Positions 1 to 5,000 of a DNA stretch of 5,000 bases are shown here, in pieces; the stretch's first letter is position 1, and each line of letters opens with the position of its first letter. Made by a program: the position numbers and the translations under genes. The stretch covers positions 1 through 5,000 of the IMG/VR virus record IMGVR_UViG_3300045988_026353, one strand, 5' to 3'. The notes under the pieces were generated by a model that made no database searches, was not told the DNA's origin, and saw only the letters and a program-made list of their open reading frames with translations. Source of the DNA: a virus.

Positions 1-113
1 ATTGAACGAATCAGAGACAACACCGAAGGCGGCCAAATTACCCTGCGGAGTAATGTCACTCGTAGCCGAAGTCTGCTGAACAGGATTGATCGAAATACGG
101 GCAGACGAACCGC
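1..113. repeat. Terminal redundancy: exact copy of 4888-5000, the wrap-around of a circular 4,887-nt genome
   Basis: I compared both ends base by base. ATTGAACGAATCAGAGACAACACCGAAGG...GCAGACGAACCGC is identical at 1-113 and 4888-5000. The VP1 reading frame is continuous across the junction because 4887 is a multiple of 3. Confidence 0.97.
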
Positions 114-1116
114 CGAGATACTCAGGACGCTGGAGACGAGCATCAGGCGAGATCACACCAAAGTGAGAACGCAAGATTTCTGTGTATCGCGTACCGCCGC
201 GGGCATCACGCTCATAGAGCTTCTGAATCTGGAAAGCTTGGCGAAGATCATTAATCGAGATAGGCGTAGCAGTTGAAAGATCGGCAATACCTTTGAGCGC
301 TGGATTTCGCCAAGACAACTGACCTGCAACATTACCAGTGCTGGCGGCAGTTCTATACGAGACGGGAGAAGAAATAGCGCTAGAAGGAGCATTAATTGCT
401 AAAAGAACTCCAGCAGGCTGAGCAATAACGTCTTCAGATCTTTCGAAATATGGCACTCCATTGCCAGTAATAGTGACATTAGCACTACCGCCAATCGAAA
501 TTTCTACGCCCGGTCCTTTTTGCGGCCAGGGCAAACATGACGTGAAGTAGTCATGACGCTTGCCACGACGAACTAAAACGTAGTCAGACAAATTGTCAGG
601 ACCATCACCCGTCGGAACCTTCAAAGACTCCTGAAGATTCTCGTCTCTAAACCACTCATTGAAAATCAAATTGTAAGCGCGGAAAGGAAGCGCGTTTACT
701 TTCAATGCTTTACTAACATTAGTCGGAAGACCAAAATAGTCCCACAGAGTTTGATTCTGAACATTCGTGCCAGAAACGGTAGGAATCAAAAAGTCTGTAG
801 AGTCAGACGGATTTTTCTGCTCACCATTGAACTTCTGCCAGTTGTCCCAAACAAGCCGGTTAGGAACAAAGAAGAAGAAAGTCTCCAGATAAAGATTGTC
901 CATAAAAGGAACAATCGGCGTAGCCAAACGGGCAAACAAAGTAGCCGTCAGCTTAAAGCTATCTCCAGGAAGTACTTCATCAACATAAAAAGGCACAAGA
1001 TAGCCAGAGTCAAAAGTTGTCTTATATCCATGAGAACGGTCAAAGACCGATCGAGGAATCTGAGTCGAAGGAACCTGCGAGAAAAGATGCTGTGTAGCAC
1101 GATTAACAGAAGACAT
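1..1116 (-). CDS. VP1: Major capsid protein VP1, N-terminal 372 codons. The gene continues across the circular junction into 4887..4399, for 534 aa in total.
   Basis: ATG at 1116..1114. Hand translation is open all the way to position 1: MSSVNRATQHLFSQVPSTQIPRSVFDRSHGYKTTFDSGYLVPFYVDEVLPGDSFKLTATLFARLATPIVPFMDNLYLETFFFFVPNRLVWDNWQKFNGEQ...RDARGGTRYTEILRSHFGVISPDARLQRPEYLGGS. The blocks KTTFDxGYLVP, DEVLPGD, FFVPNRLVWDNW and RGGTRYTE are hallmark Microviridae capsid blocks as I recall them. The ORF is absent from the supplied track because it has no stop inside the window. Roughly 250-550 (GPGVEISIGGSANVTITGNG...STGNVAGQLSW) looks like the variable surface loop. Confidence 0.95.
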   Translation of the reverse strand, partial: MSSVNRATQHLFSQVPSTQIPRSVFDRSHGYKTTFDSGYLVPFYVDEVLPGDSFKLTATLFARLATPIVPFMDNLYLETFFFFVPNRLVWDNWQKFNGEQKNPSDSTDFLIPTVSGTNVQNQTLWDYFGLPTNVSKALKVNALPFRAYNLIFNEWFRDENLQESLKVPTGDGPDNLSDYVLVRRGKRHDYFTSCLPWPQKGPGVEISIGGSANVTITGNGVPYFERSEDVIAQPAGVLLAINAPSSAISSPVSYRTAASTGNVAGQLSWRNPALKGIADLSTATPISINDLRQAFQIQKLYERDARGGTRYTEILRSHFGVISPDARLQRPEYLGGSSARISINPVQQTSATSDITPQGNLAAFGVVSDSFN

Positions 1117-1462: not shown

Positions 1463-1912
1463 TTACCCGTTGTTGTCAGAAACAGACGGTTTAACCTCAG
1501 TCGCTGGAGCAGGCTGAGGTTCTTTAGAAGACTCAGAAGACTTAACTTCTTCAGGAGCAACAAAGCCAAGATCTTCAAGCTTACTCCTTTGTTCAGGATC
1601 ATTGAGCGCCTGAAGGAACTCAGATGGAGAGTTATTGAAAGAGGCGCGAATATGGGACGGAAGGCTTTCAAAATATTCAGTTGTTCTAGCAACGGCATTC
1701 TGAGCAGTCTGAAAATCTGTTACGTCAGAAAAGTCACCGAACTGAATTGGACGCTTCGGCGAAAAAGGATCAGTCAAAAAACCGGTCTCAGCATACTTTT
1801 GCAAGATATTGTCGATCATGGTCTCATCTTTAAAGTGCTGTTGAGTCATCGACGGTTCAGTAAAGACAATGCCTTCAGCGGTAGCATTTGTGTGATTAAT
1901 TTTGAACTTCAT
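1463..1912 (-). CDS. VP3: Internal scaffolding protein VP3 (149 aa)
   Basis: ATG at 1912..1910, preceded by GGAG (1921..1918) with a 5-nt spacer. The track's longer version begins at a TTG at 1948 inside a hairpin and is unlikely. MKFKINHTNATAEGIVFTEPSMTQQHFKDETMIDNILQKYAETGFL...FGDFSDVTDFQTAQNAV...FESLPSHIRASFNNSPSEFLQALNDPEQ matches the gokushovirus VP3 pattern I recall (SxTQQxFKDE, ILxKYxxTG, LPxxIRxxFxNxPxEFL). Stop TAA at 1465..1463. Confidence 0.85.
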   Translation of the reverse strand: MKFKINHTNATAEGIVFTEPSMTQQHFKDETMIDNILQKYAETGFLTDPFSPKRPIQFGDFSDVTDFQTAQNAVARTTEYFESLPSHIRASFNNSPSEFLQALNDPEQRSKLEDLGFVAPEEVKSSESSKEPQPAPATEVKPSVSDNNG

Positions 1913-1925
1913 ATAAGCTCCATAT

Positions 1926-1953
1926 AAAAAAGTCCTCGCACTACGCAAGGACT
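1926..1953 (-). terminator. Hairpin plus T-run between VP5 and VP3 (leaky terminator or mRNA structure abutting the VP3 SD)
   Basis: The - strand reads AGTCCTTGC-GTAGT-GCGAGGACT followed by TTTTT, then ATATGGAGCTTATATG (the VP3 SD and start). The single internal mismatch is a G-U wobble on the - strand only. Confidence 0.45.
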
Positions 1954-1990: not shown

Positions 1991-2281
1991 TTAGACTTCG
2001 GCCTGAGCAGGCGCGGCCGCTTTGGCGTCCTCAATCACAGATACAAAAGCAGTCGCGGCGGCAATCTGTGTCGGAGCAGAGGCTACAAGCTCTCCAGTCT
2101 CATCAGAGTACTGACCGATCTCATAAAGAAAGAAATCGTCGGGATGCTGACCAACAGTAGTACGACTATCACGAACGAGATCAGAGAAAGACCGAGATGC
2201 ATCAGCTACAGAACGACTGAAGAACGGCGTATTAAAAACCTGAAGTTTAGAGTCGAAAACGGAAAAAACCTTAAGGATCAT
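1991..2281 (-). CDS. VP5: VP5, small non-structural protein of gokushoviruses (96 aa)
   Basis: The ATG at 2281..2279 overlaps the VP4 stop as ATGA. MILKVFSVFDSKLQVFNTPFFSRSVADASRSFSDLV...HPDDFFLYEIGQYSDETGEL matches the VP5 pattern I recall (VFSVxDxK, PFFxRxxxxAxRSF, HPxDFxLYxxGxxDxETGE). Stop TAA at 1993..1991. Confidence 0.85.
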   Translation of the reverse strand: MILKVFSVFDSKLQVFNTPFFSRSVADASRSFSDLVRDSRTTVGQHPDDFFLYEIGQYSDETGELVASAPTQIAAATAFVSVIEDAKAAAPAQAEV

Positions 2282-3195
2282 GATTGATTCTCTTCCATAA
2301 TGCGTCTGAGTTTAGCGGCTTTCAGTTCTTGGACGCGTTCACGAACTGAAAGCCGTTGCGGCGAAGTCTCGCCAGTATCTTCAAAATCGCGTCCTCGCTT
2401 TTCGCGAAGACGCTTAATCTCTTCATAACGAACAATATCAGAACGCTCCAACAACTTATCAAAATAAGCTGGAGGATTCATCATAATCTTCTCGCTAAGA
2501 ATAAGTCGATCATTAGTATAAATATCAGTCATGTACTTTTCACAAAAGTCATGACCAATGCCAGGTTTAAGCGAGCAATGACAAAATTCAGCAACCTTAC
2601 CATCATAATGATCAAACTTCAAAGGACCTGTAATTTTCTTCGTAACATAACGAGCGACATAAGCGGCAGTCTCAAAGTTGACTGAACCAATCGAACTAAA
2701 GCCATAAGGCCAAAGTTTTTCAAGCGTACGGCTACGATATAAGTTATTACCTCGACGAATCGACCAAAGCTGTTTATCAACAAAGGTCACACCAAAAATA
2801 ATTGCATGATAGTGAGGACGGCCAAGCTTATCGCCATATTCGCCACACATAAAAAAGCGAAGCTGTTGACCAAAACGACTCATGAAGTATTTACGCATAC
2901 GCTTCATGAACAGCTGAAAATGCTCGTAATGAAGTGAGCCATCAGCAGGCAAATGAGCATCATCATAAGTCAACGTAAGAAACATGTTGTTCTTATGTGA
3001 CTTAGCCTCAACAACGCATCGAGCAGCCCATTCACGAGACTTAGAAAGCCTGCAACCAATACATTGACCACAAGGAATTTTGAACTCAGAAAAAGGAATA
3101 GCTTTAGACTGATCAAACGTTATCGCATTACGTTGTCCATCTTTGGTCTTCTGACCAGCAAGACGATACGCCGTTATCGGGTGAAAGCAAGGCAT
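2278..3195 (-). CDS. VP4: Replication initiation protein VP4, HUH rolling-circle endonuclease (305 aa)
   Basis: ATG at 3195..3193, with an in-frame TGA two codons upstream that fixes the start. Motif I is FLTLTY (aa 72-77). The HUH motif is PHYHAIIFG (HYH = nt 2814..2806, checked by hand). The catalytic double tyrosine is AAYVARYVTKK (Y179/Y183, YxxxY as in phiX174 protein A). There is an N-terminal Cys cluster, PCGQCIGCR. Confidence 0.95.
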   Translation of the reverse strand: MPCFHPITAYRLAGQKTKDGQRNAITFDQSKAIPFSEFKIPCGQCIGCRLSKSREWAARCVVEAKSHKNNMFLTLTYDDAHLPADGSLHYEHFQLFMKRMRKYFMSRFGQQLRFFMCGEYGDKLGRPHYHAIIFGVTFVDKQLWSIRRGNNLYRSRTLEKLWPYGFSSIGSVNFETAAYVARYVTKKITGPLKFDHYDGKVAEFCHCSLKPGIGHDFCEKYMTDIYTNDRLILSEKIMMNPPAYFDKLLERSDIVRYEEIKRLREKRGRDFEDTGETSPQRLSVRERVQELKAAKLRRIMEENQS

Positions 3196-3404
3196 TTCTC
3201 AAGACACGCAATATGAAGCTCACGAAGAATCGTCTCACGAGAAGAGCGAGAACGAACCTGAAATGAACAAAGGGGAACCCAAGGGTAATCGCGATAAAGC
3301 GTCCAAGTCACCAACTTGCGACGACCAGCATACGTCGACTCGCCAGGAATAAGCCAGCAGACGCCAAAGTCTTTAAGAGTCAAACGAAAAGCCGCAGTAG
3401 CCAT
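3174..3404 (-). CDS. Hypothetical 76-aa basic protein, function unknown; its 3' end overlaps the VP4 start by 22 nt
   Basis: ATG at 3404..3402, TAA at 3176..3174. It fills most of the otherwise empty 284-nt gap between ORF8 and VP4. By my hand count 40 of 76 codons end in T (8 CTT, 5 CGT, 5 GCT), the same third-position T bias seen in VP1 and VP2. The SD is weak (GGA about 10 nt upstream). I recognise no motif. Confidence 0.5.
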   Translation of the reverse strand: MATAAFRLTLKDFGVCWLIPGESTYAGRRKLVTWTLYRDYPWVPLCSFQVRSRSSRETILRELHIACLEKCLAFTR

Positions 3405-3479: not shown

Positions 3480-3599
3480 TTAGATTCGAAAACCACCGCG
3501 CATCGGCGTAGCACGAGTATTCAAAGTCTTCGTGCGTGATGCACCTTTACGAAAAATACGCTTAGATGCCTTACGAGAAAGCTTATGACGACGAGACAT
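3480..3599 (-). CDS. ORF8: Small basic DNA-binding/packaging protein (gokushovirus ORF8, phiX174 J-like), 39 aa
   Basis: Not in the ORF track because it is too short. GAGG SD, then ATG at 3599..3597: MSRRHKLSRKASKRIFRKGASRTKTLNTRATPMRGGFRI, TAA at 3482..3480. It is strongly basic, and the C-terminal ATPMRGGxRx ending is typical of ORF8 proteins as I recall them. Confidence 0.85.
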   Translation of the reverse strand: MSRRHKLSRKASKRIFRKGASRTKTLNTRATPMRGGFRI

Positions 3600-3606
3600 A
3601 TAAACC

Positions 3607-3705
3607 TCACTTTTTAAAAAGTTTCTTAACGGCCTTGAAGGCCTCCCAGATCGCTGAACCAGAGCTCAACAAAACATTAACGAACTTTAAGATCGTATCT
3701 ATCAT
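3607..3705 (-). CDS. Candidate 32-aa micro-ORF (hydrophobic N-terminus, amphipathic cationic C-terminus) filling the VP2/ORF8 junction
   Basis: The ATG at 3705..3703 overlaps the VP2 stop as ATGA. MIDTILKFVNVLLSSGSAIWEAFKAVKKLFKK. The TGA at 3609..3607 lies inside the ORF8 SD (GTGAGG). It has no SD of its own, so any translation would depend on coupling. The third-position T bias is weak. Confidence 0.35.
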   Translation of the reverse strand: MIDTILKFVNVLLSSGSAIWEAFKAVKKLFKK

Positions 3706-4325
3706 TTCGCGAGATGAGCGGCGCCAACAGCGGAATTGGTAAGTGGCGCAGTTGAATTAAAAGGATTAATCAAATTCATCCACTGTCCAAACTTCCAAGC
3801 GCTTGAATGCTCTTTCATATAATCAAAAGCTAACTTCTGCTTCTCAGAAGCAATAGCAGAATTCTGAGTCATAAATTTCGCTTGCTTCAAATTCTCTTCT
3901 TGAATCTTATTAGCAATCTCTTGACCTTTCGTTTGAGACCACATCAAATTTGAAGAAGAATCAGAAGCGACAGCCTGAGCGCGTTTCAAACCTGCATCTG
4001 CTTGAAGTGCAGAATTCTGAACGTAAGTCTGTTTCTCAAGAGCATCTTTCAGATTCTTCTCAGAACGCTGAGTTGACGCTTCAGCACCAGACTTAAAAGC
4101 GCCAGCAAGATCAGGAGCAACAATTGTAGGCGCGTTGCCAGGAGCGCCAGAACCGCCTGTAGCTGAAAGAATCGGATTAAGACCAGCTTTGCGCATATCA
4201 GCAACTTCCCATTGATGCCGATTTTGAATCACTTCTTTCTGATGCTTCCAGCCAAAATACGCAGATAATGCAGAACTACCTAAATTGGCAGCACCACCTA
4301 TCGCTTCTGCCCAAGGAAATCCCAT
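3702..4325 (-). CDS. VP2: Minor capsid / DNA pilot protein VP2 (207 aa)
   Basis: ATG at 4325..4323 with AGGA upstream. It has a Gly/Ala/Ser-rich N-terminus (AIGGAANLGSSALSAYFG), the motif ADMRKAGLNPILS typical of gokushovirus VP2 as I recall it, and a Q/K/E-rich predicted coiled central part. It sits directly after VP1. Confidence 0.85.
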   Translation of the reverse strand: MGFPWAEAIGGAANLGSSALSAYFGWKHQKEVIQNRHQWEVADMRKAGLNPILSATGGSGAPGNAPTIVAPDLAGAFKSGAEASTQRSEKNLKDALEKQTYVQNSALQADAGLKRAQAVASDSSSNLMWSQTKGQEIANKIQEENLKQAKFMTQNSAIASEKQKLAFDYMKEHSSAWKFGQWMNLINPFNSTAPLTNSAVGAAHLAK

Positions 4326-4326
4326 A

Positions 4327-4389
4327 TCACTGTCCTAAAGCAAAGATAACAACAGTGCCAACAACAGCAAGCCAAATAACTAAAGCCAT
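4327..4389 (-). CDS. Candidate 20-aa fully hydrophobic micro-ORF (single transmembrane-length peptide) between VP1 and VP2
   Basis: AAGGAG (4400..4395, overlapping the VP1 TAA), a 5-nt spacer, then ATG at 4389..4387: MALVIWLAVVGTVVIFALGQ. The TGA at 4329..4327 lies 1 nt before the VP2 ATG. 12 of 20 codons end in T, like the bona fide genes. It is too short for the ORF track. Confidence 0.5.
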   Translation of the reverse strand: MALVIWLAVVGTVVIFALGQ

Positions 4390-4398
4390 AACAACTCC

Positions 4399-5000
4399 TT
4401 AAAAATGATCAACCAAGCCAGGCACTGAATACACGGGCATCGGACGAGCGCACTTCAAACGAATATACGAGTCAAACAAGAATTGCGGCTCATTCTGAAC
4501 GGCAATTACACGCTCAACAGGCGGATTATCTTGAATGAATTGCGACGAAAGAGTTGGCAAAGAGCTGAACTTCTGCGCTAAATGCCAGCTATCAAGCGGC
4601 TGGGAATCAGTCGAACGGAACTTGCCAGTAATCTGACCAGGATAGTAGCGATACTCGGCATAACGCTCTTGATAACCAAAAACCTTATCGTCATCAGCAG
4701 TGCCTTGAGCATAGATCTCTTTGTTAAGAACAGCTTGTTCGCCAAGATGGGCAAGCACGGGCCAGTAAAAGTCAAAACGACCTTGACGCGACCACATGCG
4801 GTTCAAACCTTGCTGGTAAGTCAGGTCAGCGCGAACATTCACAAAGCCAAAGACGTAGCCGTGCTCGACAAAAGACTTAGAAAAGCCATTGAACGAATCA
4901 GAGACAACACCGAAGGCGGCCAAATTACCCTGCGGAGTAATGTCACTCGTAGCCGAAGTCTGCTGAACAGGATTGATCGAAATACGGGCAGACGAACCGC
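4399..5000 (-). CDS. VP1: Major capsid protein VP1, C-terminal part (same gene as 1..1116; the unique part is 4399..4887 and 4888-5000 duplicates 1-113)
   Basis: It is in the same frame as 1..1116 across the circular junction. ...GNLAAFGVVSDSFNGFSKSFVEHGYVFGFVNVRADLTYQQGLNRMWSRQGRFDFYWPVLAHLGEQAVLNKEIY...RYAEYRYYPGQITGKFRS...WHLAQKF...IRLKCARPMPVYSVPGLVDHF, TAA at 4401..4399. The M at 4923 in the track is an internal TTG (Leu), not a real start. Confidence 0.95.
   Translation of the reverse strand, partial: GSSARISINPVQQTSATSDITPQGNLAAFGVVSDSFNGFSKSFVEHGYVFGFVNVRADLTYQQGLNRMWSRQGRFDFYWPVLAHLGEQAVLNKEIYAQGTADDDKVFGYQERYAEYRYYPGQITGKFRSTDSQPLDSWHLAQKFSSLPTLSSQFIQDNPPVERVIAVQNEPQFLFDSYIRLKCARPMPVYSVPGLVDHF
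4888..5000. repeat. Terminal redundancy: exact copy of 1-113
   Basis: See feature 1-113. Confidence 0.97.

What the first reader, a model, noticed from the sequence alone, without database searches (positions are those of the whole stretch)
4327..4400. 20-aa all-hydrophobic micro-ORF behind the strongest Shine-Dalgarno in the genome, wedged exactly between VP1 and VP2
The VP1 stop is embedded in TAAGGAG. Five nt later an ATG opens MALVIWLAVVGTVVIFALGQ, which ends in a TGA 1 nt before the VP2 ATG. An AAGGAG with ideal spacing has no other obvious purpose here, because the VP2 start is about 70 nt away and has its own AGGA. 12 of the 20 codons end in T, like the real genes. The peptide is one membrane-spanning length with no charged residue. 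As far as I know, gokushoviruses have no identified counterpart of the phiX174 lysis protein E. A small membrane peptide is therefore a plausible candidate for lysis, membrane targeting or superinfection exclusion. The ORF is also in frame with VP1 (TAA GGA GTT GTT ATG...). Rare readthrough of the stop would thus give VP1 a hydrophobic C-terminal tail.
Basis: partly seen in the sequence, partly recalled or inferred. Interest (0 to 1): 0.7.

Follow-up and report, generated by a model that had tools for sequence, protein, structure and literature searches.

The report
Unannotated 20-codon membrane-peptide gene in gokushovirus
A 20-codon gene for a wholly hydrophobic, membrane-length peptide sits between the capsid and pilot-protein genes of a human-gut gokushovirus; it is conserved as a coding sequence in about 60 relatives yet annotated nowhere, which makes it a testable but unproven candidate for membrane or lysis functions in a phage group with no known lysis gene.

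Summary
The features lie on the window's minus strand: VP1 stop in TAAGGAG (4401-4395), a 5-nt spacer, ATG 4389, MALVIWLAVVGTVVIFALGQ, TGA 4329-4327, 1 nt, VP2 ATG 4325.

The ORF is a real coding unit. It is kept in 61 of 63 clade genomes and in 25 further gut-metagenome contigs. It has no indels, an omega-like ratio of 0.25-0.31 (controls 1.0-2.3), changes by codon position of 35/12/67, and no charged or polar replacement in codons 2-19.

- The SD is ancestrally VP2's. Every outgroup has TAAGGAG followed directly by the VP2 ATG, so the ORF is a roughly 64-nt clade-specific insertion that now takes that SD and hands ribosomes on to VP2.
- It has been cleanly lost twice in intact genomes, so it is dispensable.
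- VP1 readthrough is not supported. Five genomes have the ORF out of frame with VP1, some with tandem stops.

Other gokushovirus lineages carry unrelated small hydrophobic ORFs in the same slot.

The most likely reading is a late-expressed, translationally coupled accessory membrane peptide. A lysis role is possible but untested. No database or GenBank record calls it.

The parts
4399..5000 (-). 3' part of the VP1 (major capsid) gene, including its TAA stop at 4401-4399. The full gene runs 1116..1 and then continues 4887..4399 on the circular 4887-nt genome (534 aa).
   Evidence: Pfam Phage_F E=1e-77; VP1 start and length; the window is a 4887-nt circle plus a 113-nt overlap.
4395..4400 (-). 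Shine-Dalgarno AAGGAG overlapping the VP1 stop. It was ancestrally VP2's ribosome-binding site and now lies 5 nt upstream of the micro-ORF ATG.
   Evidence: Sequence. Anti-SD duplex -8.7 kcal/mol, the strongest start-associated SD in the genome. The same motif directly precedes VP2 in outgroups and in L016 and L038.
4327..4389 (-). Micro-ORF 'm20': ATG plus 19 codons plus TGA, encoding MALVIWLAVVGTVVIFALGQ.
   Evidence: ORF list. Kept in 61 of 63 clade genomes with no indels. Omega-like 0.31 (61 sequences) and 0.25, against 1.0-2.3 in control frames. Changes by codon position 35/12/67, p=2e-9. No D/E/K/R/N/Q/H/P in codons 2-19. GRAVY 2.28, the most hydrophobic of the 48 ORFs of 15-30 aa in the window.
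4333..4336 (-). Weak SD (AGGA) for VP2, embedded in micro-ORF codons 18-19. Codons 17-18 (GCT TTA) are invariant in 61/61 genomes, third positions included; codon 19 is GGA in 55/61 (GGG or GGT in 6).
   Evidence: Per-codon table; SD energy -3.9 kcal/mol.
3702..4325 (-). VP2 (DNA pilot protein) gene. Its ATG lies 1 nt after the micro-ORF stop (1-5 nt across the clade), an arrangement that fits termination-reinitiation coupling.
   Evidence: PHROG pilot / minor tail protein E=2.5e-64; distribution of the stop-to-start gap.

Best explanation
m20 is a real, independently translated 20-codon gene that arose as a roughly 64-nt insertion between VP2's ancestral Shine-Dalgarno sequence (embedded in the VP1 stop) and the VP2 start codon. 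It is found in one clade of ~4.9-kb human-gut gokushoviruses.

Shown:
- Its start, stop, length and hydrophobic character are under purifying selection.
- It now owns the strongest start-associated SD in the genome.
- Its stop lies 1-5 nt before the VP2 ATG.
- Its last codons double as VP2's weak SD.

Inferred:
- Ribosomes finishing VP1, or loading at AAGGAG, translate m20 and then reinitiate on VP2. The peptide would therefore be made late, in amounts tied to capsid and pilot-protein synthesis.
- The peptide is 18 consecutive apolar residues with an invariant Trp6 and a small-residue face (A8, G/S/A/C11, T/S/A/V12, G19). It probably inserts as a single helix into the host cytoplasmic membrane.
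- There it acts as a dispensable accessory factor.

My committed guess at the function is membrane perturbation or depolarisation that helps or times release of progeny, in the manner of 19-26-aa type I toxins such as IbsC and ShoB. I give that specific role about 0.35. I give 'real gene for a membrane peptide, translationally chained VP1 to m20 to VP2' about 0.8.
For: Coding signal:
- 61 of 63 clade genomes keep the ORF: 60 with an ATG start and 1 with GTG; 60 with 20 codons and 1 with 19.
- 25 more gut-metagenome contigs keep it.
- There are no indels inside the ORF, while both flanking spacers vary in length.
- Omega-like ratio 0.31 (61 sequences) or 0.25, against 1.0-2.3 for the other sense frames.
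- The method recovers the known VP1 and VP3 frames and rejects overprinted ORFs as controls.
- Changes by codon position are 35/12/67.
- None of the roughly 16 kinds of replacement in codons 2-19 is charged or polar, although 27% of single-nucleotide options would be.
- One disabling change was seen against about 9.5 expected.
- The antisense ORF that shares wobble positions is not conserved.

Ancestral SD and insertion.

SD strength.

Hydropathy.

Analogous slot-filling genes elsewhere:
- A 26-aa family in 18 haplotypes, omega-like 0.16.
- L122 carries two ORFs in tandem at this junction.
- L423 and L399 share a 56-aa ORF, and L421 has a 45-aa ORF. All use stop-in-SD or TAATG coupling.

Precedent that peptides of this size are membrane-active: IbsC (19 aa) and ShoB (26 aa) depolarise cells within minutes (PMC8309996); IbsA (19 aa) targets the FoF1 ATPase (bioRxiv 10.1101/2025.05.26.656083).

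No endolysin or peptidase domain was found in the genome.
Against: - There is no direct evidence of translation or of membrane insertion.
- The ORF is absent from all outgroups and from the cultured gokushoviruses phiMH2K and Chp2.
- It has been lost at least twice, in otherwise intact genomes L016 and L038 nested inside the clade. Whatever it does is not essential.
- Synonymous diversity (0.18) is lower than in the VP1 tail (0.32), so some nucleotide-level constraint, VP2's RBS at least, also acts.
- Out-of-frame ORFs on this T-rich strand are often hydrophobic, so hydrophobicity alone is weak evidence.
- The host is unknown, so the envelope type cannot be used to judge a lysis mechanism.
- A more widely conserved amphipathic 32-aa ORF after VP2 is a competing candidate for membrane or lysis activity.
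Confidence: 0.55

Rival explanations
1. Pure translational-coupling spacer (a leader or upstream ORF). The insertion matters only because it moves VP2 away from the strong SD and makes VP2 synthesis depend on termination-reinitiation, which tunes the VP1:VP2 ratio. The peptide itself would be a functionless by-product.
For: - The stop is always 1-5 nt from the VP2 ATG.
- The ORF's 3' end is invariant at the nucleotide level and forms VP2's weak SD.
- The SD was ancestrally VP2's.
- Precise loss restores the ancestral arrangement in viable-looking genomes.
Against: - A by-product peptide should drift freely. Instead omega-like is 0.25-0.31, replacements are only conservative, and Trp6 is invariant.
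- Length is fixed at 20 codons with no indels.
- Unrelated lineages fill the same slot with other hydrophobic peptides that are also under purifying selection.
Confidence: 0.15
2. m20 is the clade's lysis effector: a minimal single-gene lysis protein or pinholin-like depolarizer, and so the missing functional counterpart of phiX174 E.
For: - No lysis gene or peptidase was found in the genome.
- Gokushovirus lysis is unexplained (PMC7062461).
- It has an SD and a transmembrane-length segment, two of the three screening criteria used for sgl genes (PMC7693330).
- Expression is tied to capsid-gene termination, as for the MS2 lysis gene (my own knowledge).
- Peptides of 19-26 aa can collapse the membrane potential (PMC8309996).
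Against: - Two independent natural deletions occur in otherwise intact genomes.
- The closest outgroup and most gokushoviruses lack it, so another release mechanism must exist in near relatives.
- It is shorter than any characterised Sgl.
- It has no similarity to E.
Confidence: 0.2
3. A VP2-linked membrane partner. The peptide would bind the hydrophobic N-terminus of the pilot protein VP2. It could act as a chaperone or assembly aid for the phage's own VP2, or as a superinfection-exclusion factor that blocks the DNA conduit of incoming related phages.
For: - Small hydrophobic ORFs in several lineages always flank VP2, before or after it, and are translationally chained to it.
- A patchy distribution with frequent loss is typical of accessory or exclusion genes.
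- Position 11 accepts only small residues and position 12 only T/S/A/V, which suggests a helix-helix packing face.
Against: - There is no test of interaction.
- Exclusion genes often diversify, whereas m20 is strongly conserved.
- m20 shows no significant sequence relationship to the VP2 N-terminus.
Confidence: 0.15
4. C-terminal extension of VP1 by stop-codon readthrough, giving some capsid subunits a hydrophobic tail.
For: The ORF is in frame with VP1 in the window and in 56 of 61 relatives.
Against: - It is out of frame in 5 of 61 genomes (L031, L036, L041, L042, L051), some with tandem stops TAATGA or TAATTAA.
- Its own conserved start codon and SD spacing are unnecessary for readthrough.
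- No readthrough-promoting structure was found: fold z-score +0.61 and no covariation.
Confidence: 0.03

Closest known systems
Type I toxin peptides IbsC/IbsA (19 aa) and ShoB (26 aa) of enterobacteria
   Same: Same size class, almost entirely hydrophobic, a single predicted transmembrane helix, and (like IbsC) no positively charged C-terminus. These peptides show that a peptide of this size can depolarise the membrane or hit a specific membrane complex (PMC8309996; bioRxiv 10.1101/2025.05.26.656083).
   Different: Those are chromosomal genes repressed by antisense sRNAs. m20 sits in a phage late operon behind a strong SD, with no evidence of an antisense regulator, no sequence similarity, and untested toxicity.
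phiX174 protein E and other single-gene lysis (Sgl) proteins
   Same: A small membrane-anchored product of a tiny phage genome that lacks an endolysin. m20 meets the SD and TMD criteria used to nominate sgl genes (PMC7693330).
   Different: E is 91 aa, overprinted in gene D, and has a soluble C-terminal part. Sgl screens considered only ORFs longer than 25 aa. m20 is a 20-aa stand-alone intergenic insertion, is dispensable in nature, and has no Pfam or PHROG match.
Translationally coupled small ORFs (termination-reinitiation, stop-in-SD or TAATG/ATGA overlaps), e.g. MS2 coat to lysis coupling (my own knowledge)
   Same: The VP1 stop lies inside the SD of m20, and the m20 stop lies 1-5 nt before VP2. 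The same pattern continues with VP2 to ORF32 (ATGA) and ORF32 to ORF39 (TGA inside GTGAGGT).
   Different: In m20 the peptide sequence itself is under purifying selection, unlike a pure coupling device.
phiX174 protein K (small, hydrophobic, non-essential; my own knowledge) and phiMH2K orfN
   Same: Small hydrophobic accessory products of Microviridae that are not required for viability. orfN is annotated as E/K-like.
   Different: K (56 aa) and orfN (109 aa) are overprinted in other genes. m20 is intergenic and far shorter, with no sequence similarity.
Other gokushovirus junction micro-ORFs found here: the 26-aa MNDLQISTIAIVSLCIIVVLRTFGLI family, the L423/L399 56-aa ORF, and the L421 45-aa ORF
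   Same: Same slot between VP1 and VP2, same coupling architecture, a transmembrane-length hydrophobic core, and a coding substitution pattern (omega-like 0.16 for the 26-aa family).
   Different: No detectable sequence similarity to m20, longer, and with polar or charged termini. They probably have independent origins.

Membership tests
Protein-coding gene under purifying selection | Conserved start, stop and length; no frame-breaking indels | tested here: met
   60 ATG and 1 GTG start; 60 of 61 have 20 codons; no indels, while the flanking spacers vary in length. One disabling change seen against about 9.5 expected.
Protein-coding gene under purifying selection | Excess of synonymous over non-synonymous change, specific to this frame | tested here: met
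   Omega-like 0.31 (61 sequences) or 0.25, against 1.0-2.3 in the other sense frames and 0.40-1.7 in antisense frames. Changes by codon position 35/12/67, p=2e-9. Counts are based on a minimum spanning tree, not a full codon model.
phiX174 E-type lysis protein (Microvir_lysis) | Sequence or profile similarity to protein E | tested here: not met
   No Pfam family at E<=1. Only a non-significant PHROG hit of unknown function, E=0.15.
phiX174 E-type lysis protein (Microvir_lysis) | Overprinted in another gene; N-terminal TMD plus a C-terminal soluble segment (~91 aa) | tested here: not met
   Stand-alone intergenic ORF of 20 aa with no soluble segment.
phiX174 E-type lysis protein (Microvir_lysis) | Causes lysis by inhibiting MraY | not testable with these tools
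   Needs expression and genetics in a host.
Sgl candidate by the operational criteria of PMC7693330 | ORF longer than 25 aa | tested here: not met
   20 aa.
Sgl candidate by the operational criteria of PMC7693330 | Putative SD and a predicted transmembrane domain | tested here: met
   AAGGAG 5 nt upstream, -8.7 kcal/mol. GRAVY 2.28. The best 19-mer sums to -2.2 kcal/mol on the Hessa scale, with scale values taken from memory. No dedicated TM predictor was available.
Holin | One or more TMDs with a charged hydrophilic C-terminus, encoded next to an endolysin | tested here: not met
   No charged residue in the peptide (a minority of relatives have a C-terminal Arg). No endolysin or peptidase domain in the genome.
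Type I toxin (Ibs/ShoB-like) | Hydrophobic peptide shorter than 60 aa with one TM helix | tested here: met
   comparison with IbsC and ShoB in PMC8309996.
Type I toxin (Ibs/ShoB-like) | Antisense RNA antitoxin; toxicity on overexpression | not tested
   No conserved structure or antisense ORF was found at the locus. Antisense transcription and toxicity need experiments.
Pure translational-coupling leader ORF | Stop codon within a few nucleotides of the downstream start | tested here: met
   Gap of 1-5 nt in all 61 genomes.
Pure translational-coupling leader ORF | Peptide sequence unconstrained | tested here: not met
   Conservative replacements only, Trp6 invariant, omega-like 0.25-0.31.

The most novel reading that the evidence does not exclude
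m20, together with the unrelated hydrophobic micro-ORFs that other gokushovirus lineages carry in the same VP1-VP2 slot, is the missing gokushovirus release system. These would be the smallest phage lysis or lysis-timing effectors known (20-56 aa). They would have been invented repeatedly at a translationally privileged site behind the capsid gene, and missed so far because gene callers ignore ORFs under 30 codons.
Probability: 0.15. Interest if true: 0.85.

Novelty: new variant of a known kind. Interest (0 to 1): 0.6.

Why it matters
Gokushoviruses are among the commonest ssDNA phages in the human gut, and how they exit the cell is unknown. This work identifies a conserved gene that no annotation contains. 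It is absent from a collection of 15 billion predicted proteins and from six GenBank records. Tiny membrane-peptide genes also recur next to the pilot-protein gene in several lineages.

That gives a concrete, cheap experiment: express a 20-aa peptide, or knock out one ATG in a synthetic 4.9-kb genome. The experiment bears on lysis, superinfection exclusion and VP2 biology.

The locus also shows how a new gene can be born by capturing a neighbour's ribosome-binding site. It is a reminder that gene-caller length cut-offs hide a class of genes in the smallest genomes.

Tried and rejected
- VP1 readthrough fusion: rejected. The ORF is out of frame in 5 of 61 genomes, some with tandem stops.
- Fusion with VP2 by readthrough or frameshift: rejected. 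The offset between the m20 stop and the VP2 ATG varies (1, 2 or 5 nt), so the frame relation is not conserved.
- Structured RNA or DNA element instead of a gene: the fold is no better than shuffles (z=+0.61). The alifold consensus is weak (-5.8 kcal/mol) with no compensatory pairs. No Rfam hit.
- Antisense ORF 4268..4402 (+ strand), which shares wobble positions with m20: it has no conserved start and its frame is broken by spacer indels.
- Origin by duplication of the VP2 5' end: no similarity. The nucleotide score ranks 3452 of 4760 windows, and the protein score is reached by 22% of shuffles.
- A 14-nt exact repeat between the m20 start and VP4 (2707-2694) does not extend and is probably chance.
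- Homologues of the peptide elsewhere: a degenerate DNA pattern hits only this clade in IMG/VR (56 contigs) and human-gut contigs in metagenomes. The one exception is a chance hit in a GC-rich contig.
- Family and exact-sequence look-ups: Pfam and PHROGs give nothing significant. The exact peptide is not in the protein collection.
- Host identification from bacterial genomes: only two distant hits (63% and 52% VP1 identity), neither in the clade.
- Literature: no report of this ORF or of a gokushovirus membrane micro-protein.
- Overprinted ORFs as alternative lysis candidates (ORF75, ORF79, ORF80, ORF65): they are not intact across relatives or carry no coding signal of their own.
Full report
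**What the window is.**

The 5000-base window is one complete circular gokushovirus genome of 4887 nt plus a 113-nt assembly overlap. All genes are on the minus strand:
- VP1: 1116..1, continuing 4887..4399 (534 aa)
- the micro-ORF: 4389..4327
- VP2: 4325..3702
- VP4: 3195..2278
- VP5: 2281..1991
- VP3: 1948..1463

The nearest GenBank genomes are human-associated gokushoviruses, led by PV067910 at 91.7% identity. The others are PV067909, PV067908, MG945560, KT264829 and KX513869. None annotates anything between VP1 and VP2.

**Checking the observation.**

Reading the minus strand confirms every sequence statement. The stretch reads ...CAT TTT TAA GGAG TTGTT ATG GCT TTA GTT ATT TGG CTT GCT GTT GTT GGC ACT GTT GTT ATC TTT GCT TTA GGA CAG TGA T ATG GGA....
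- The VP1 stop is inside TAAGGAG, and the spacer to the ATG is 5 nt.
- The peptide is MALVIWLAVVGTVVIFALGQ.
- The TGA lies 1 nt before the VP2 ATG.
- VP2 has its own AGGA inside codons 18-19.
- Twelve codons end in T. Real genes here have 45-54% T at the third position.
- The ORF is in frame with VP1.

By anti-SD duplex energy the site scores -8.7 kcal/mol. The other gene starts score -3.9 (VP2), -2.7 (VP4), -3.3 (VP5) and -6.6 (VP3). The only stronger SD-like site, GGGAGG near 3649, is followed by no start codon. 'Strongest SD' therefore holds for start-associated sites.

**Is it more than chance?**

A scan of IMG/VR with the VP1 C-terminus returned 80 loci, and their junctions were read directly. 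Counting the window and the six GenBank records, 63 clade genomes (VP1 C-terminus at least 91% identical) have a readable junction.
- 61 of the 63 keep the ORF: 60 start with ATG and 1 with GTG; 60 have 20 codons and 1 has 19.
- The peptide variants are listed.
- A separate metagenome scan added 25 human-gut contigs, all with the ORF. Some of these are the same assemblies as IMG/VR contigs.

Substitutions were counted along a minimum spanning tree of the 48 nucleotide haplotypes.
- There were 60 synonymous and 54 non-synonymous changes over 15.3 and 44.7 sites, an omega-like ratio of 0.31. The two other sense frames gave 1.10 and 1.74.
- A second extraction gave 0.25.
- Changes fall 35/12/67 on codon positions 1/2/3 (chi-square p=2e-9).
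- The same method gives 0.05 for the VP1 frame and 0.28 for the VP3 frame. It gives no signal for ORFs overprinted on those genes, so it discriminates real frames from false ones.
- Replacements in codons 2-19 are only V/I, I/F, L/V, A/V/T/I, G/S/A/C and T/S/A/V. None is D/E/K/R/N/Q/H/P or a stop, although 27% of possible single-nucleotide non-synonymous changes would be.
- Trp6 is invariant.
- With about 114 substitution events, about 9.5 start-loss or nonsense changes are expected if the ORF were neutral. One was seen, CAG to TAG at the last codon (P about 6e-4).
- No indel occurs in the 60 nt, while the SD-ATG spacer and the stop-ATG gap both vary in length.
- The antisense ORF that shares wobble positions has a higher ratio (0.40), no conserved start and a shifting frame.

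I conclude that the micro-ORF, called m20 here, is a coding sequence under purifying selection for a hydrophobic peptide.

**What the surroundings show.**

First, the SD is not orphaned. In every more distant relative (VP1 C-terminus 85% identical or less), the VP1 stop embedded in TAAGGAG, TAAGGTG or TGAGG is followed after 6-16 nt by the VP2 ATG itself. m20 is therefore an insertion of about 64 nt between VP2's ancestral SD and VP2's start. It has taken over that SD. VP2 is left with a weak AGGA formed by m20 codons 18-19. Codons 17-18 (GCT TTA) are invariant even at third positions, and codon 19 is GGA in 55 of 61 genomes.

Second, two clade members, L016 and L038, lack the ORF precisely: TAATGAGGTTGAT-ATG-VP2 and TAAGGAGTTGATT-ATG-VP2. 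They sit at two different places inside the clade in a neighbour-joining tree, and their other genes are intact. An 8-nt direct repeat, TGATATGG, at the m20 start and the VP2 start in many genomes would allow such excision (inference). m20 is therefore dispensable and has been lost at least twice.

Third, 5 of 61 genomes have m20 out of frame with VP1, some behind tandem stops. This rules out a conserved VP1 readthrough tail. The variable 1, 2 or 5-nt offset to VP2 likewise rules out a conserved fusion with VP2.

**Not an RNA element, and origin unknown.**
- The junction folds no better than shuffled sequence (z=+0.61).
- The alignment consensus is weak and shows no compensatory changes.
- Rfam finds nothing.
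- m20 is not a recognisable duplicate of the VP2 5' end.
- A 14-nt identity with VP4 does not extend.
- A degenerate back-translated pattern finds the sequence only in this clade.

**A wider pattern.**

Other gokushovirus lineages fill the same slot with different small hydrophobic ORFs.
- The L083 clade (VP1 C-terminus about 70% identical) encodes MNDLQISTIAIVSLCIIVVLRTFGLI (26 aa) behind GGAGGTG. Its stop lies inside VP2's SD (TGAGGTG) or overlaps the VP2 start (TAATG). Its 18 haplotypes give omega-like 0.16 and position counts of 26/4/52.
- L122 carries a homologue, (GTG)EKITDIVFIVVGVLVVLKTFMLI, plus a second ORF, MNKWWTAFFQALAAFAGSVLGTFTGFLS, in tandem before VP2.
- A weak relative of that second ORF (48% identity over 23 residues, E=0.33) lies after VP2 in the L083 clade.
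- L423 and L399 share a 56-aa ORF with a hydrophobic core (56% identity), with TAGGTGA over the VP1 stop and TAATG on the VP2 start. L421 has a 45-aa one.
- In a broader sample of 213 junctions, which is heavily enriched for the m20 and L083 clades, 58 were direct (gap of 20 nt or less). Others carry hairpins instead of ORFs.
- The cultured phages phiMH2K and Chp2 have hairpin-containing gaps and no such ORF.

In the window itself the coupling chain continues. A 32-aa amphipathic ORF starts in ATGA with the VP2 stop. Its TGA lies inside the SD of a 39-aa basic J/VP8-like ORF.

**How it most likely works.**

Shown: a conserved 20-codon gene with the best start-associated ribosome-binding site in the genome, placed immediately after the capsid gene and immediately before the pilot-protein gene.

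Inferred:
- Ribosomes that terminate on VP1, or load at AAGGAG, translate m20, terminate 1-5 nt before the VP2 ATG and reinitiate there. m20 would be made late and at least as abundantly as VP2.
- The peptide has GRAVY 2.28, and its best 19-residue stretch sums to about -2.2 kcal/mol on the Hessa scale (scale values from memory). It is the most hydrophobic of the 48 ORFs of 15-30 aa in the window, although out-of-frame ORFs on this T-rich strand reach 1.9-2.0.
- A helix of 20 residues is about 30 A long, just enough to span a bilayer core.
- Position 11 accepts only small residues and position 12 only T/S/A/V, which suggests a helix-packing face (inference).
- IbsC (19 aa) and ShoB (26 aa) depolarise E. 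coli within minutes, and IbsC keeps its toxicity when cut to 15 residues (PMC8309996). IbsA (19 aa) is reported to inhibit the FoF1 ATPase (bioRxiv 10.1101/2025.05.26.656083). So a peptide of this size can have a specific membrane activity.

My preferred reading is a dispensable, late-expressed membrane peptide that perturbs the host membrane and thereby helps or times release. I give that function about 0.35. I give the underlying claim, a real membrane-peptide gene chained between VP1 and VP2, about 0.8.

Rivals:
- A VP2 partner or superinfection-exclusion factor. The consistent placement next to VP2 argues for this.
- A pure coupling spacer. The selection on the peptide argues against this.
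- The clade's sole lysis effector. The natural deletions and the absence from close outgroups argue against this.
- VP1 readthrough. This is rejected.

**Comparison with what is known.**

m20 is not a member of the phiX174 E family. It shows no profile similarity, it is not overprinted, and it has no soluble domain. It fails the length criterion used in sgl screens (ORFs longer than 25 aa, PMC7693330) while meeting the SD and TMD criteria. It lacks holin hallmarks. Physically it is closest to Ibs/ShoB-type toxins, but it has a different genetic context and no known antisense partner.

**Novelty.**

The peptide and two variants are absent from a collection of 15 billion predicted proteins. Six GenBank genomes contain the ORF without annotating it. 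The literature searches found no description of it. Reviews and primary papers still state that gokushoviruses lack an identified E-like lysis gene (PMC7062461, PMC3394797).

**Verdict.**

This is a previously unannotated, clade-specific micro-gene for a membrane-length peptide. It was born by capture of VP2's ribosome-binding site, it is dispensable, and it is one instance of a recurring class of tiny hydrophobic genes flanking VP2. Its function is open. A lysis role is possible but not favoured as an essential one. Interest is 0.6.

Noticed in passing
window 3607-3705 (- strand): A 32-aa ORF, MIDTILKFVNVLLSSGSAIWEAFKAVKKLFKK, amphipathic with a Lys-rich C-terminus. Its ATG overlaps the VP2 stop (ATGA), and its TGA lies inside the SD (GTGAGGT) of the next ORF. 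It is intact in 41 of 41 relatives, omega-like 0.12, and is present in L016, L038 and outgroup L064. The six GenBank relatives do not annotate it, but other sources call it 'hypothetical protein'. It is a competing candidate for membrane or lysis activity.
   Followed up: partly
window 3480-3599 (- strand): A 39-aa strongly basic ORF, MSRRHKLSRKASKRIFRKGASRTKTLNTRATPMRGGFRI (phrog_10695, E=7e-13). It resembles the J/VP8-type DNA-binding protein. The ...PMRGGFRI C-terminus is conserved across most sampled gokushoviruses. The six closest GenBank records do not annotate it.
   Followed up: partly
window 3174-3404 (- strand): A 76-aa ORF that overlaps the VP4 start by 22 nt. It is intact in 45 of 45 relatives, omega-like 0.16, and is clade-specific (no hit in outgroups). 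It has no Pfam or PHROG family. Its protein cluster has 492 members, all 'hypothetical'.
   Followed up: partly
window 1-113 and 4888-5000: The window is a circular 4887-nt genome with a 113-nt terminal overlap. VP1 therefore runs off position 1 and resumes at 4887.
   Followed up: yes
L083 and L087-L104 (e.g. L087 about 1873-1980); L122; L273 2970-3050: A second micro-gene family, 26 aa (MNDLQISTIAIVSLCIIVVLRTFGLI), lies between VP1 and VP2 in another gut gokushovirus clade (omega-like 0.16). L122 has a homologue plus a second hydrophobic ORF (MNKWW...) in tandem. A weak relative of that second ORF (48% identity over 23 residues, E=0.33) sits after VP2 in the L083 clade, followed by the J-like gene. 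All are chained by TGAGGTG or TAATG coupling.
   Followed up: partly
L423 277-447 (- strand of the locus), L399 4084-4254, L421 3340-3477: Further junction ORFs with hydrophobic cores. L423 and L399 share a 56-aa ORF (56% identity, E=1e-19), and L421 has a 45-aa singleton. Each starts at or in the VP1 stop and ends on or 1 nt before the VP2 ATG.
   Followed up: partly
L108, L112, L113 (also L109, L333, L336, L339): VP1-VP2 gap of 103-118 nt: Instead of an ORF, these genomes carry an ~80-nt nested hairpin. An example is GGGTTATTCTGTTTTTACCGAG...CGATGGTAAACACGGAAATAACCC. There are apparent compensatory differences between L113 and L108. No Rfam family matches.
   Followed up: partly
L154, VP1-VP2 gap (70 nt): A 21-aa Cys- and Arg-rich ORF, MCTCNFCKECAVRRYNRRRRK, whose TGA overlaps the VP2 ATG. 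This is a quite different kind of junction peptide.
   Followed up: no
L222 (CAPRTS010000002.1, Eubacteriales MAG) 2313-6363: Gokushovirus-like genes (VP1 52% identical in the C-terminal part, plus VP2 and VP4) lie inside a 137-kb bacterial contig next to an aminoacyl-tRNA-synthetase-like gene. This looks like a prophage in a Firmicutes genome and is a lead on host range for this wider group.
   Followed up: no
window 3641-3649 (- strand): The strongest anti-SD match in the genome, CUGGGAGGC (-10.2 kcal/mol), lies inside the 32-aa ORF and is not followed by a start codon.
   Followed up: no
window 4378-4391 and 2694-2707 (- strand): A 14-nt exact repeat, TTATGGCTTTAGTT, is shared by the start of the micro-ORF and a site inside VP4 (codons YGFS). 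Similarity does not extend beyond it, so it is probably chance.
   Followed up: yes
L312 (phiMH2K, AF306496) 3997-4326: orfN (109 aa, with a central hydrophobic stretch) is annotated 'similar to bacteriophage phiX174 E and K proteins'. This is the only prior lysis-type suggestion for a gokushovirus that I met, and it is overprinted in Vp4.
   Followed up: no
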